Source of the DNA: Macrostomum lignano
Taxonomy: Eukaryota
NCBI GenBank assembly: GCA_002269645.1
Contig: NIVC01000045.1
Location: forward strand, 484,892-548,891
DNA: 64,000 nt
Direction: 5' to 3'
The notes below the pieces were generated by a model. It saw only the letters and a program-made list of their open reading frames with translations, was not told the DNA's origin and searched no databases. Of the stretch, positions 56,337-64,000 are shown one piece after another. The number at the start of each line of letters is the position of its first letter. Positions within the stretch are counted from its first letter, which is position 1. The position numbers and the translations under genes are program-made.

Positions 56337-56576
56337 ATGTTTCCAGTTGTCTCTCCAGGTTCTTATTACAAAGCGCACGAGCCTAATTACAAGAGTAAGT
56401 ACCGATGCAAACTTGAATGCAGCGAGTACATGAGAAAATATTGGCCCGACGTTGATATCAATGTCCCTAATATTAATCTAGCTCTCCAAAGACACTGGTT
56501 TCATAAGTATGGAGTAACCTATGTAAAAGATTATGACAGCTACTATAACTTTGCAGAAATCATTAGGCAATTGTGA
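56337..56576 (+). CDS. Small Tyr-rich orphan protein (79 aa) of the Maverick
   Basis: aaaaATG context like the other element genes; converges on the penton stop with a 4-nt gap. Confidence 0.55.
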   Translation: MFPVVSPGSYYKAHEPNYKSKYRCKLECSEYMRKYWPDVDINVPNINLALQRHWFHKYGVTYVKDYDSYYNFAEIIRQL

Positions 56577-56580
56577 TTTC

Positions 56581-57444
56581 TTACATTCTTTCAATGATCA
56601 ATGTCAATACAAACTCTTCCCCATTAAAATCAACGCCCATCCCATCTTCAGTCTCAAACTGTAGCACAATCTCGTGAATCTCTTTATTACTCAATACAAC
56701 TCTTTTCACTGGATTTGGTTTCTCTACCACCATCTGTCCTCCAGCAACAGAGTTGGAGATGTTGTACAAAATATTCGTTCGCTTTCCCTTAAATACCCAA
56801 TCAAGACTGAGATTGCTTCTGATTAGAATATTCAAACCCTTTACAATGTCTGCAATATTGGGTGCTAAGAACAAACCGCTTACATTTTCCCGGGCCATTT
56901 TAACGGTCCCCAATGCTTGAGTGGCGGTCCGCGCCGCGGATTCTGCCTTATAAACTTTCTTCTCGAATCCCAGTTCCCTATACCAAGTGTCATCTTTAAA
57001 CTCAACCTCCGCATCTTTGTGAACTTGCATGACCACTCTCATTACAGTGAGATCATAGGTTAGTTTGACAGGGAACAGTTTCTTCTCTGGCTTACTCGCA
57101 TCAGGTGTCTCAAAATGGCCTCTCTTAGTAAAGACATTTTCTAGAAAGTTATTGTAGGTATCCACACTTTGCGTGCTCACATGGAATACCACAGGGTCTG
57201 CTGCTGCACCTTTCCATTTGTAATAAAACTTATTATTTGCTGCCATCACATTGGGAACGTTTGACCAACCAGTGAAGTCGTTAAGATAGACATGGTAATT
57301 AGCACCTGGATCCAGGCGAATCGCCTGCTCTAATTTTTGAATAAATATCCCGTTTGATTCATTAATTCGCCCAGTTATTGTAATAGGAATGCTCTCCTTG
57401 GAGTGAGAAACAATATTATTTAGTCTTTCAGCAATCGCTTCCAT
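56581..57444 (-). CDS. Minor capsid protein (penton, single jelly-roll)
   Basis: Adjacent to the MCP. Motifs IRLDPGANYHVYL..SNVPNV..NNKFYY and the C-terminal FETEDGMGVDFNGEEFVLTLII are typical of Polinton/adintovirus pentons. Confidence 0.78.
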   Translation of the reverse strand: MEAIAERLNNIVSHSKESIPITITGRINESNGIFIQKLEQAIRLDPGANYHVYLNDFTGWSNVPNVMAANNKFYYKWKGAAADPVVFHVSTQSVDTYNNFLENVFTKRGHFETPDASKPEKKLFPVKLTYDLTVMRVVMQVHKDAEVEFKDDTWYRELGFEKKVYKAESAARTATQALGTVKMARENVSGLFLAPNIADIVKGLNILIRSNLSLDWVFKGKRTNILYNISNSVAGGQMVVEKPNPVKRVVLSNKEIHEIVLQFETEDGMGVDFNGEEFVLTLIIERM

Positions 57445-57467
57445 TTTTTCACCCACAAAAAAAATAT

Positions 57468-58754
57468 TTAAACTTTACTGGATGAATTGTTGATCATGTT
57501 AAGCTTCACCTTCCTCTCAAATGCATAGATAATGTACAGGTCCACGGGTGTTGCGACAGTCCTCTCAATGTTAGTCACGATATTCACAGGGCTGTTATCA
57601 GTAGGCATTTGTCTGGCAGACACATCAGCGCCAAACATTGGATATAGAGTTCCATATTGAAGAGCAGTGATAGCAATTCCATTGTTCTCTTTCACAGCCA
57701 AGTCGACCAACTCGCTGTAAAATTTGCTAATCTTGTTCTGACTGAAATCTCCATTTTGTGGCAGTGCAGGGTAAAGAATATCACTTATTTCATGCTGAAT
57801 GGACCGCACGTCTCCATGCATGTAGCGTATAATGCTATTTGGGTTTCTCATATTAATAATGATATACCTTGGATTGCTGCATGATCCCTCTTTAATGCAG
57901 ATATTTGTTCTAGTTTCGTTTCGCTCATCTCGACACATGTAGGCTGTGTATGCAACATCAATGTCCTTCTCTATTGCCTTAAGATAATCCGCTTTTAGTG
58001 CAGTCTTTGGCTCAATGACTTCCAAATACAGCTCGATTCCGGTTAGCTTCACCTCCATCCTTGTGTGGTCCGCCCCAGTCCACAACACTCTACTGCGATC
58101 ATCTCTAGTCATCTTAAAGGTGTAGCTAAAGTTACTAGTCAGTCGATTAAATGTATTACAGAATCCACTCATGAATCTCAATGGTACAAATACATCAACA
58201 GACCGATACAGCGGGTTCTTAGCAGCATCATCAGCACCTTGCAATGCATAGTTGTATCTCTTCTTCCTCTTTTTATAGCCACTGTCATTGATATCTCCTT
58301 CTTTTTCGTCTGCAATAAAACCCGCACCACTTCCCAATTGAATAAAATCAGGATTCTCGATCAAACAATGAGCGTCATAGACAATTCCAAAGTTCGCGAT
58401 TCGCTCCAACTCAGTGCTCCCATTCGATACACTAAAATCCTTGAACATGTACGCCCAAAAGTTACTGATCAGAGCCACATCCGCATCATGCTTGTCAACG
58501 TTAGCACGAGCCGCATCCGCACCACCCTTTGTCTTGAATTGAAATGTCATATGGAAGCCGCTCTTAAGACTGTGCACACTAACCAAAGACGAACATCCAT
58601 TGTATGTAAATGTCAGTGTTTGACCAGGACCAAGATTAGTTTCATTCTGATTTTCCTGACTGGGAACTCTTACCTGAGTCGCTTTGATTGTGCTATCATC
58701 ACTCAAAATAGGCTTGTTAATCTTGTAGAAAACTGGTGTCAGTGGGTCGTTCAT
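57468..58754 (-). CDS. Major capsid protein (double jelly-roll, Polinton PY/hexon-like), 428 aa
   Basis: Size, beta-rich pattern (VDVFVPLRFMSGF, NPRYIIINM, YPMFGADVS, LYIIYAFERKVKL) and position next to penton, ATPase and protease. Confidence 0.82.
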   Translation of the reverse strand: MNDPLTPVFYKINKPILSDDSTIKATQVRVPSQENQNETNLGPGQTLTFTYNGCSSLVSVHSLKSGFHMTFQFKTKGGADAARANVDKHDADVALISNFWAYMFKDFSVSNGSTELERIANFGIVYDAHCLIENPDFIQLGSGAGFIADEKEGDINDSGYKKRKKRYNYALQGADDAAKNPLYRSVDVFVPLRFMSGFCNTFNRLTSNFSYTFKMTRDDRSRVLWTGADHTRMEVKLTGIELYLEVIEPKTALKADYLKAIEKDIDVAYTAYMCRDERNETRTNICIKEGSCSNPRYIIINMRNPNSIIRYMHGDVRSIQHEISDILYPALPQNGDFSQNKISKFYSELVDLAVKENNGIAITALQYGTLYPMFGADVSARQMPTDNSPVNIVTNIERTVATPVDLYIIYAFERKVKLNMINNSSSKV

Positions 58755-58785
58755 TTTTTTAACTAAAAATAAAATAAAATAAGAA

Positions 58786-62245: not shown

Positions 62246-62336
62246 ACAACCGGCGGTGCAGATGGAATTATCAAAAAGAAAACAGATCTTTCAACCGGAT
62301 AGTTTTATAATTTTTTTTTTTTTTCTAGAGAAAAAA

Positions 62337-63050
62337 ATGGCCCAACAAAATTCTCTATACGATCAGTCTCAATACGTTGAACCTAAAATACCGACAGCAC
62401 CAAACTCAATGGCACCGAATTCGAACACACAAAACCTGGCACCGAATCTGAATGCACCTCAATATGAGCAACAAAAACTCTACCCCGTCATTACTTGTAA
62501 CTCTCAACAGTTTCGACTGGTAGAGACTCAAAAAATGCGAGATGATCTTGAAAAAAATATTTTCCACAACACAAAGAAAATTAAACGCTATGAAAGCCAC
62601 TGTAAATTTTTCGACTACAGCAATATGATTCTAGGATCTGTGTCTGTTCTATCTGGATCTGCTGCAGCTGTCTCAACGTTGCCAGTCATCACAGCCCCAA
62701 TCGCAATCCCGCTCGGCTCTGTGGGTGCTGCATGTGGACTTATTTCAGCAATTACTGGAGCATTAGCGCGAAACAGGCGAAAAAAACTAAAGCAGCTACA
62801 GGAGAAGCAAGTAAAAGAGAAAGGGGTGCACACTTCAATCATAGGGTACATTTCAAGAGCAATAGACGATAAGTTCATTTCAGAGGATGAGTTCAAAACC
62901 ATTCAGGATCTTTATGAACAATCAATTCGAATGAACTTGAACATGGTCGGTACTGATGACATGAGTCAGCTGAGAAATGAACTCGAGAAAGTTCTTCAAC
63001 ATTATGTGGAAAGAAGGACAACGAGAAGTACAACGAGGAATGCACAATGA
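62337..63050 (+). CDS. Maverick accessory protein with central hydrophobic hairpin (candidate membrane-active, 'GasderminX'-type), 237 aa
   Basis: QQFRL..helical region, then small-residue hydrophobic segments (ILGSVSVLSGSAAAVSTLPVITAPIAIPLGSVGAACGLISAITG), a basic KKLK patch and AIDDKFISEDEF. Confidence 0.6.
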   Translation: MAQQNSLYDQSQYVEPKIPTAPNSMAPNSNTQNLAPNLNAPQYEQQKLYPVITCNSQQFRLVETQKMRDDLEKNIFHNTKKIKRYESHCKFFDYSNMILGSVSVLSGSAAAVSTLPVITAPIAIPLGSVGAACGLISAITGALARNRRKKLKQLQEKQVKEKGVHTSIIGYISRAIDDKFISEDEFKTIQDLYEQSIRMNLNMVGTDDMSQLRNELEKVLQHYVERRTTRSTTRNAQ

Positions 63051-63054
63051 ACCC

Positions 63055-63462
63055 TTATGAAACACCGGGAAAGCCAAGAATAATTTCCTTGTAGGTCTTT
63101 CGTGTTTTGGTCATTGCATACAAAACAGTCATGCACAGCTCACCGCAAATATCACTGCTAAGACCTTGGTGAATAAAGTCTGAGCGATAAATTTTTTTAT
63201 TATTTTTTCCCTTCATATAATTTCTTAGCTCTTCTGGTACTGCCGTCCCATAGCTATCGAAGTAATAACACTTGTGCTTGCGATCGGGATCAATCACCCA
63301 GCAAACCCAATGAGATCCTGGCTTATCGGTGCTGTCAAAGTTCATGATGCCGCATTCTTTTCTTAGAGGAAAATCAGACAGAGTGTCCCTCATAAATATT
63401 CCTCTAAAGTTTGGGATTTCCAGTTCGTTAGCCAAATCTTCAAGAAAGTTATTTGTTGTCAT
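63055..63462 (-). CDS. Adenain-like (family C5) cysteine maturation protease, 135 aa
   Basis: Catalytic motifs GSHWVC, YFDSYG and HQ..SDICG. Confidence 0.92.
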   Translation of the reverse strand: MTTNNFLEDLANELEIPNFRGIFMRDTLSDFPLRKECGIMNFDSTDKPGSHWVCWVIDPDRKHKCYYFDSYGTAVPEELRNYMKGKNNKKIYRSDFIHQGLSSDICGELCMTVLYAMTKTRKTYKEIILGFPGVS

Positions 63463-63489
63463 TTTTTATGAGGTTTATTAAACTTTCTC

Positions 63490-64000
63490 TCAACCTAAAC
63501 CCAATATCCACCTCCTAAACCTAAACCTCCAATGCCCGAACGGTAGACTGTTGATATTGTCATCAAAAATGAATCTCTTGTTATCTGCACCTGACAGTCC
63601 AATCTTCTTTTGCCTGAATTGTGTGAATAATATGGTTTTTAGATTGTAGCTTTGAGAACTCATGTGATGTCTTTTTGTTGCAATTCAAGGCGTCTTCTGT
63701 ATTCAGCTTCATTAATTTCCTTCCTAACCACACGTTTCGGAATTCCCTTTGATTTTTTGATTGGGTCTGACGACTCACATTTTATAAAATAGGACTTTGC
63801 TCTCAACCCAATGAATTCAGTGATTATGTCACCAGCAATCTCGTCCTTCATTTTCCCAATCACTTTCTTGTTAGTGGCGTCAAACATTGATCGCCATTCT
63901 GTCCTGAAAGATTCATCATACTCAGACAAGTCAAACAAATCTTTTTGCTGCAGCATGTCCTGATAAATGTCTTCTGTTTGAATGTCATAATAAAACTGTC
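63490..64000 (-). CDS. Protein-primed family B DNA polymerase, C-terminal part (3 single-base indels)
   Basis: DS(F)YYDIQTEDIYQDM..FDLSEY..NKKVIGKMKDE..EFIGLRAKSY..KKSKGI, then after frame changes SKNHIIHTIQ|KKIGLSGADNKRFIFDDNINSLPFGHW. Confidence 0.92.

What the first reader, a model, noticed from the sequence alone, without database searches (positions are those of the whole stretch)
56337..64000. Near-complete endogenous Polinton/adintovirus-like virion module in an invertebrate genome
Seen: uninterrupted MCP, penton, packaging ATPase and protease ORFs, plus pPolB and several unassigned genes. Known: this set is the morphogenesis module of Mavericks/Polintons. Inference: four open structural ORFs with no internal stops suggest a young, possibly virion-competent insertion that may represent an unclassified lineage.
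Basis: partly seen in the sequence, partly recalled or inferred. Interest (0 to 1): 0.75.

Follow-up and report, generated by a model that had tools for sequence, protein, structure and literature searches.

The report
Flatworm Maverick virus capsid gene cluster
This stretch holds open capsid, vertex, DNA-packaging and protease genes of a Maverick (Polinton) virus-like element that likely sits in dozens of copies in an animal genome, likely a flatworm's; such elements are common, and several neighbouring genes of this copy are broken as assembled, so it is an ordinary member of a known kind.

Summary
The virion module is real. Four open ORFs encode a double-jelly-roll major capsid protein, a single-jelly-roll penton (fold match to mavirus and adenovirus pentons, Z 12.4-12.6), an A32-type ATPase and an adenain-like protease. 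'Near-complete, young, virion-competent' is overstated. Only the last ~160 codons of pPolB lie in the window; no integrase or terminal repeat was found. pPolB and two or three other genes are frameshifted as assembled; decay and assembly error cannot be told apart. The family itself looks recent and multi-copy: 20 of 24 listed runs, one organism, 7 studies, hold it, with many contigs 95-100% alike. One protein's best named relative is labelled Macrostomum lignano (78%), so the host is likely that flatworm or kin. The capsid protein forms a small divergent clade (next group 22-27% identity), unplaced against named genera. Integrase-linked flatworm Polintons are already tabulated (PMC10748475 supplement). 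Verdict: new member of a known kind; interest lies mainly in a possibly culturable host for seeking Maverick virions.

The parts
55115..55984 (-).
   Evidence: ORF. No Pfam, NCBIfam or PHROG hit; Atlas best score 0.84, a lead only. Multi-copy depth like the element body in X7: 721-1074 at three sites with few contigs.
55953..56157 (.). Degenerate direct duplication in a non-coding stretch that varies between copies
   Evidence: Self-BLAST 55953-56088 vs 56036-56157, 74%; highest summed depth bin and several joints.
56337..56573 (+). 78-aa ORF of unknown function
   Evidence: A-rich start context; both listed variant sites at third codon positions; no Pfam hit.
56581..57444 (-). Minor capsid protein (penton), single jelly roll, 287 aa, open
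   Evidence: 13 homologs at 38-65%. Model pLDDT 77. VIA Z 12.6 (rmsd 6.7, 233 aligned) to mavirus penton 6g41; Z 12.4 to an aviadenovirus capsid chain; Z 11.7 to a Sputnik chain. Foldseek E 6e-14 and up to viral minor capsid proteins.
57468..58754 (-). Major capsid protein, double jelly roll, 428 aa, open
   Evidence: Pfam PF21738 21 bits, under the 27-bit cut-off; 20 of 22 homologs tested pass it. Low-confidence model, pLDDT 53; its top 10 VIA rows are all viral capsid or scaffold chains, Z 9.3-7.4. Foldseek top rows mostly MCPs.
58786..60011 (+). Gln-rich gene whose C-terminus resembles the Maverick PZ protein (label recalled, not tested); frame changes near 59820-59870
   Evidence: 360-aa ORF stops at 59868 while an 83-residue stretch runs in another frame to 60008; single gaps in contigs over this place in X1 and X20 (table 8).
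60028..60422 (+). Small (~130 aa) basic protein with GSG/GxG motifs and an amphipathic helix; predicted virion core or membrane-penetration protein; broken in its first codons in this copy
   Evidence: 15 homologs at 54-78%; best is UniRef A0A1I8GHE5 labelled Macrostomum lignano. 14 of 15 have Met at the column of the window's out-of-frame ATG. Hydrophobic moment 1.0-1.6 over residues 47-91.
60465..60570 (.). 21-bp tandem repeat, 5 copies, intergenic
60613..61413 (+). A32/FtsK-type genome-packaging ATPase, 266 aa, open
   Evidence: Pfam Pox_A32 27.1 bits, cut-off 22.8, E 3.6e-6; Walker A at 34, Walker B at 152, RGRH at 171.
61430..62245 (+). Two short ORFs (129 and 128 aa) around an 82-bp duplication; probably one gene broken in this copy
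   Evidence: Small indels against the window at 61770 and 61888 in all 4 runs. The second ORF lacks the A-rich start context seen at 7 of 11 starts.
62337..63050 (+). 237-aa protein with a central hydrophobic segment; likely a membrane protein of a family shared with other animal elements and large DNA viruses
   Evidence: Kyte-Doolittle windows above 1.6 start at residues 108-126. Atlas 0.93 to unnamed clusters of viral and mollusc records; recognition 2215 is under 2300, so weak.
63055..63462 (-). Adenain-like cysteine protease, 135 aa, open
   Evidence: Pfam Peptidase_C5 20.8 bits, cut-off 21.3, E 3.4e-4. Adenovirus proteinase 1avp E 0.0075; His51, Asp69, Gln99 and Cys106 align with the adenain active site (adenain numbering recalled).
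63493..64000 (-). C-terminal end of the protein-primed B-family DNA polymerase, frameshifted, cut by the window edge
   Evidence: 16 metagenome loci match. blastx gives two frames against 6 of 7 long ORFs, 34-48% identity. Those ORFs carry DTDS, and one abuts an rve integrase. Small indels against the window at 5 places within 63613-63985 in all 4 runs.

Best explanation
This is the virion-gene block and polymerase end of a Maverick/Polinton element that likely sits in tens of recent copies in the genome of an invertebrate, likely a Macrostomum flatworm; its four core virion genes are open, while the polymerase end and two or three other genes are frameshifted as assembled. By analogy with the family (inferred, not shown here), the element would copy itself with its protein-primed polymerase from terminal repeats and insert through a retrovirus-like integrase lying outside the window. 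MCP trimers and penton vertices would form an icosahedral shell, the A32 ATPase would load the DNA, and the adenain-like protease would mature it, probably cutting the small GxG-bearing amphipathic protein. As assembled, this copy could not replicate alone and would depend on sister copies.
For: Penton fold Z 12.4-12.7, well above unrelated rows at 7.4 or less. MCP: PF21738 on 20 of 22 homologs, and all top-10 fold rows are viral capsid or scaffold chains. Pox_A32 above cut-off; Peptidase_C5 just under it, with aligned catalytic residues. pPolB C-terminus 34-48% identical to long DTDS-bearing ORFs, one beside an rve integrase. Penton directly follows MCP, as described for Polintons. Multi-copy and recent: 20 of 24 listed runs hold 58-68% of the words, one organism, 7 studies (6 if a possible source is left out). 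6590 of 7749 contigs in X1 and 1328 of 1746 in X7 are 95% or more alike. Five single body contigs in X7 have depth 522-1242 against 16-24 for three diverged ones. 18 of 25 in-ORF variant sites fall on third codon positions. Host label from UniRef.
Against: No integrase or terminal repeat in the window, so two defining features are unseen. The MCP model is low-confidence (pLDDT 53), and its Z values of 7.4-9.3 are near the range the tool calls common. No profile library named the polymerase fragment or its long relatives as a polymerase; that label rests on motifs recalled from knowledge. Depth is not a copy number by the tool's own warning. No laid contig spans the stretch, so the host junction is not shown. 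The codon-position count uses 28 of the 40 rows shown (330 in all), and 7 sites lie in one 94-bp penton stretch (11 of 18 without them). The host name rests on two UniRef labels at 77-78% identity.
Confidence: 0.88

Rival explanations
1. This very copy is intact in the animal, and the frameshifts are uncorrected long-read errors in the assembly.
For: The breaks are 1-2 base indels. 7 of the 12 indel rows shown cluster in the last ~510 bases of the window, and all 4 runs carry the other form there, in X9 and X20 at or near full depth for the 5 pPolB places.
Against: None of the 12 indel rows shown (of 57) falls in the four core ORFs (about 3.4 kb), which uniform error would also hit. Most Maverick copies in surveyed vertebrates are decayed (96%, PMC8097293). 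Contigs drop rare variants, so a private lesion in one of tens of copies would look the same.
Confidence: 0.35
2. The host has kept (domesticated) the virion module of this copy while its replication genes decay.
For: MCP, penton, ATPase and protease are open while pPolB and accessory genes are broken; third-position bias of variants.
Against: Sister copies do not share the pPolB breaks. The likely virion core/membrane gene is itself broken. The family is multi-copy and near-identical, as expected of an active element rather than a single-locus host gene.
Confidence: 0.04
3. The cluster is a free virus or contaminant misjoined to host DNA.
For: No laid contig spans the stretch, and no terminal repeat or target-site duplication was found. 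Most close homologs come from short metagenome contigs.
Against: Held by runs of one organism over 7 studies, 2015-2024. Many divergent copies per run, and low-depth contigs tile the left edge 54381-55151 with 0-3 differences in X1. Homologs are gene models of an animal genome. None of 6 IMG/VR scans found a relative.
Confidence: 0.03

Closest known systems
Mavericks/Polintons (class Polintoviricetes; 'polintoviruses', PMC4028283)
   Same: Double-jelly-roll MCP with an adjacent single-jelly-roll penton, packaging ATPase, adenovirus-like protease, pPolB; intronless dense cluster in an animal genome; many copies.
   Different: Integrase and terminal repeats not in the window. The MCP is divergent (21 bits on PF21738 against 142-171 for four typical hits). 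Gene order differs from the two-module vertebrate plan (PMC8097293): no integrase lies beside penton or MCP.
Adintoviruses, Beta-type (PMC8502044)
   Same: Animal host; Hexon, Penton, FtsK and Adenain equivalents. Long polymerase relatives miss PF03175 (0 of 4), as the paper says of Beta PolB. A small amphipathic protein recalls its 'Cupiennin' class.
   Different: The OTU domain and integrase cannot be seen here. No GasderminX, PLA2X or Cupiennin homology was shown. The held, cut part of the supplement has no Macrostomum entry.
Integrase-linked pPolB1 Polintons of flatworms (PMC10748475, tables S2-S3)
   Same: 748 entries in 8 of 73 flatworm genomes. 175 and 78 rows fall under two assemblies that I recall as Macrostomum lignano, many flagged with TIRs. 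This family is probably among them.
   Different: The table lists polymerase and integrase positions only. Sequence identity to this family was not tested, and the passages read do not describe their capsid module.
Mavirus and other virophages; adenoviruses
   Same: Best solved-structure matches for the penton (6g41, 8roq, 3j26) and protease (1avp).
   Different: Only 9-13% identity in the penton fold matches; the MCP profile finds no solved chain by sequence. Virophages depend on giant viruses in protists (listing).

Membership tests
Maverick/Polinton (Polintoviricetes) | Double-jelly-roll major capsid protein | tested here: met
   PF21738 E 2e-4 on the window protein (under cut-off) and above cut-off on 20 of 22 homologs; top 10 fold rows are viral capsid or scaffold chains, on a low-confidence model.
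Maverick/Polinton (Polintoviricetes) | Single-jelly-roll minor capsid protein (penton) near the MCP | tested here: met
   Z 12.6, rmsd 6.7, 233 aligned to mavirus penton; gene lies 23 bp downstream of MCP.
Maverick/Polinton (Polintoviricetes) | A32/FtsK packaging ATPase | tested here: met
   Pox_A32 27.1 bits over cut-off 22.8; Walker A, Walker B and RGRH motifs.
Maverick/Polinton (Polintoviricetes) | Adenain-like cysteine protease | tested here: met
   Peptidase_C5 E 3.4e-4, 20.8 bits vs cut-off 21.3; 1avp E 0.0075 with His/Asp/Gln/Cys aligned.
Maverick/Polinton (Polintoviricetes) | [quoted passage not shown] | tested here: met
   C-terminal ~160 codons only, frameshifted; 34-48% to ends of long DTDS-bearing ORFs, one beside rve. 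No library named them polymerases; motif reading recalled.
Maverick/Polinton (Polintoviricetes) | Retrovirus-like (rve) integrase | tested here: inconclusive
   One distant integrase (L009) finds nothing in the window at E 0.01, and no rve hit on the ORFs scanned; the window cuts the element.
Maverick/Polinton (Polintoviricetes) | [quoted passage not shown] | tested here: inconclusive
   Longest inverted pair in 53870-64000 is 28 nt and A/T-rich; the right end is outside the window and no genome is held.
Maverick/Polinton (Polintoviricetes) | Integrated, multi-copy in a eukaryote genome | tested here: met
   Host gene and retroelement fragment in the window; one organism, 7 studies; many 90-100% alike contigs. 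The junction itself is not spanned.
Adintovirus, Beta type | PolB with N-terminal OTU domain | not testable with these tools
   The N-terminus lies outside the window and no genome is held.
Adintovirus, Beta type | PolB divergent from PF03175 | tested here: inconclusive
   0 of 4 long relatives hit PF03175; tested on relatives at 40-45%, not on the element's own core.
Adintovirus, Beta type | GasderminX and Cupiennin accessory genes | tested here: inconclusive
   The small protein has an amphipathic helix, but no Pfam or PDB match at useful E-values; no reference set at hand (one search found none of four motifs in the held part of the supplement).

The most novel reading that the evidence does not exclude
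A culturable flatworm carries a recently expanded Polinton family of a distinct, unnamed capsid lineage that still makes virions from its intact copies, giving a tractable animal in which to see Maverick particles directly.
Probability: 0.2. Interest if true: 0.7.

Novelty: new member of a known kind. Interest (0 to 1): 0.3.

Why it matters
As found, it adds one more invertebrate Maverick family with a divergent capsid clade. It also shows that two database gene models ('Variable large protein', 'Senescence domain-containing protein') are probably Maverick genes. The wider stake is that Maverick particles had not been observed according to PMC8097293 (abstract); PMC8502044 reports only an unpublished co-purification from insect cells. 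A young multi-copy family with open capsid genes in a likely laboratory flatworm would be a practical place to look.

Tried and rejected
No host genome is held, so copy count, right end, integrase and junctions could not be read. Expression: no RNA holder listed; X9 and X20 are only guessed to be RNA, so their cover is not used. IMG/VR: 0 relatives in 6 of 6 scans. JGI metagenomes: none with the MCP alignment; the penton alignment had no usable pattern. GTDB genomes: none. Phage records: none for the polymerase fragment or L009. PDB by sequence: nothing for the MCP profile, ATPase, polymerase fragment, L009 or the small-protein profile at meaningful E. None of 12 other window ORFs matched the 16 polymerase loci. 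Cluster look-ups gave no host names for 20 of 20 MCP relatives, and 8 of 8 window proteins are not in the collection, so the tree has no named references. The maximum-likelihood tree did not finish; FastTree on 98 rows was used (61 of 158 fetched rows dropped for length outside 380-520 aa). Weak hits rejected as chance or composition: TRPM2, PilO, SelR/MsrB, ParC, terminase, nucleoporin clusters. The idea that 55115-55984 is the integrase was rejected. Earlier findings: 3 look-ups, nothing. No complex was folded.
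Full report
OBSERVATION. The right 8 kb of the window differ sharply from the rest: about 94% coding, with tandem repeats over 4.6% of it against 38.5% in 1-56300. Seven of 11 starts examined have four or more A directly before the ATG. No genome is held for the window, so nothing right of 64000 could be read.

GENE IDENTITIES. MCP: Pfam PF21738 scores 21 bits, under the cut-off of 27. Nine homologs were found, seven at 70-77% and two at 43-44%, and the full-length ones align end to end. Of 22 homologs scanned, 20 pass the cut-off. The model is weak (pLDDT 53), yet its ten best matches among 48,161 solved chains are all viral capsid or scaffold proteins (faustovirus Z 9.3, rmsd 7.8, 268 aligned; ASFV p72 8.8; adenovirus hexon 8.2; mavirus 8.0). 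The best BFVD rows are mostly MCPs. The tool warns that Z under 8 is common, so this test supports rather than proves. Penton: 13 homologs at 38-65%, model pLDDT 77, Z 12.6 to mavirus penton and 11.7-12.7 to PBCV-1, adenovirus and Sputnik capsid chains, with unrelated rows at 7.4 or less; Foldseek agrees. ATPase: Pox_A32 above cut-off, with Walker A, Walker B and RGRH. Protease: Peptidase_C5 just under cut-off; adenovirus proteinase E 0.0075, with His51, Asp69, Gln99 and Cys106 aligned to its active site (numbering of that site recalled). The lengths of ATPase and protease were not checked against close homologs. Polymerase: the 112-aa frame at the window edge found 16 metagenome loci. The long ORFs there carry DTDS and reach 1266-1305 aa; one is followed by an rve integrase. 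No library named these ORFs as polymerases, so the label rests on recalled motifs and context.

THIS COPY IS BROKEN AS ASSEMBLED. The polymerase end aligns in two different frames to 6 of 7 long relatives, and all four laid runs differ from the window by small indels at five places in 63613-63985. The Gln-rich gene from 58786 stops at 59868, while a stretch that I recall as the PZ C-terminal motif runs in another frame to 60008. The small gene at 60028-60422 has 15 homologs; 14 of them have Met at the column where the window's ATG is out of frame. The ORF pair at 61430-62245 straddles an 82-bp duplication, with indels in all four runs. None of the 12 indel rows shown (of 57) lies in the four core ORFs. 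Contigs cannot tell a private lesion in one copy from an assembly error; clustering near the window's end favours error for the polymerase, and most Maverick copies elsewhere are decayed.

FAMILY AND HOST. Twenty of 24 listed runs hold 58-68% of the stretch's words; all 24 bear one organism label, and the holders come from 7 studies (6 if a possible source is left out). In X1, 3789, 2801 and 1159 of 7749 laid contigs are 99+, 95-99 and 90-95% alike; in X7, 720, 608 and 418 of 1746. Five single contigs in the element body of X7 have depth 522-1242 against 16-24 for three diverged contigs, which suggests tens of copies; the tool warns that depth is no copy number. Depth is low at 54381-55151 and reaches body level from about 55.0-55.3 kb in X7, so the 289-aa ORF at 55115-55984 is likely part of the element (unidentified). 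No contig spans the stretch, and no terminal repeat was found. Of the 40 substitution rows shown (330 in all), I scored 28 and left out 12 at 54493-54986. Twenty-five lie in ORFs and 18 of these at third codon positions (binomial p 9e-5, but 7 sit in one short penton stretch; 11 of 18 without them). This hints at purifying selection in the family. The window also holds an intron-split host gene and a retroelement RNase H. The only named homologs, 2 of 15 for the small protein, are UniRef entries labelled Macrostomum lignano at 77-78%. The host is therefore likely that flatworm or a relative; this is inference.

LINEAGE. A profile search of 1.84 billion representatives gave 539 proteins at E 0.001 or better, 23 at 1e-30. 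In a FastTree tree of 98 rows (61 of 158 fetched rows dropped for length), the window MCP groups with five 71-77% relatives (support 100) and three 42-44% relatives (99). The next group is 22-27% identical and mostly longer. All 20 relatives looked up are unnamed metagenome or Logan proteins, so the clade cannot be placed against named genera. It is distinct, but such divergence is expected for an under-sampled host.

MECHANISM. Shown: the genes, their folds or motifs, multi-copy presence and the breaks. Inferred from the family (PMC4028283, passages; PMC11161782, passages; PMC8097293, passages): protein-primed replication, integrase-mediated insertion, an icosahedral shell of MCP and penton, ATP-driven packaging and proteolytic maturation. 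The small protein, with conserved GSG/GxG motifs and an amphipathic helix, is predicted to be a protease-processed core or membrane-penetration protein like the membrane-active genes of adintoviruses (PMC8502044, parts 1-2 of 6 and passages); homology was not shown. Virion production is untested.

PRIOR ART. PMC10748475 (passages; supplement rows) lists 748 integrase-linked pPolB1 entries in 8 of 73 flatworm genomes. These include 175 and 78 rows under two assemblies that I recall as M. lignano (30 rows seen). bioRxiv 10.1101/2025.04.19.649669 (passages and section 10; supplements not seen) reports Orthopolintovirales insertions in Rhabditophora. I found no paper describing a Macrostomum Polinton capsid module: the paired searches gave one unrelated paper each (listings only), none of the 20 and 40 papers listed holds the genus name, one search gave the preprint above, and the held, cut supplement of PMC8502044 has no entry. 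The library lacks most subscription papers and Repbase.

VERDICT. A real Maverick/Polinton virion module in a recently expanded family; a new member of a known kind. 'Near-complete' and 'virion-competent' do not for this copy as assembled. Interest 0.3; it would rise to about 0.7 if particles were found in the host (probability about 0.2).

Noticed in passing
window 2212-3626 (-): Host gene in two pieces matching Pfam Hep_59 (profile 1-82 and 82-103), i.e. an intron-split eukaryote gene.
   Followed up: partly
window 24369-25196 (-): RNase H domain (E 4e-8), likely the 3' end of a non-LTR retrotransposon.
   Followed up: partly
window 1-56300: 38.5% covered by tandem repeats, with many unrelated 12-51-bp minisatellites; a 1.87-kb (TCAG)n array at 50045-51913 makes spurious long ORFs.
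   Followed up: no
window 51911-52384 (-): GC-rich 157-aa ORF between two arrays, possibly a host exon; no Pfam hit.
   Followed up: partly
window 54608-54901 (-): 97-aa ORF ending like the 55115-55984 ORF (45 bp at 91%); a multi-copy spot near 54770 suggests a remnant of a paralogous accessory gene and an element end further left.
   Followed up: partly
window 56581-57444, residues ~165-190: The penton carries an insertion of about 22 residues that most homologs lack; low model confidence there.
   Followed up: no
P0195, P0209: UniRef names 'Variable large protein' and 'Senescence domain-containing protein' for what appear to be Maverick small proteins.
   Followed up: partly
L009:2237-7439: 1302-aa polymerase-like ORF with an endonuclease VII insertion, directly followed by an rve integrase with a Tudor-like tail.
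   Followed up: partly
L013:3525-9803: Fragmented polymerase beside an ORF that resembles a Crinkler-type N-terminal domain (recalled, untested), suggesting a fungal host.
   Followed up: no
PMC10748475 table S3 rows seen: Among flatworm entries the integrase lies either just upstream of pPolB or about 6-8 kb past its 3' end; the second layout would put it inside this window, where none was found.
   Followed up: no
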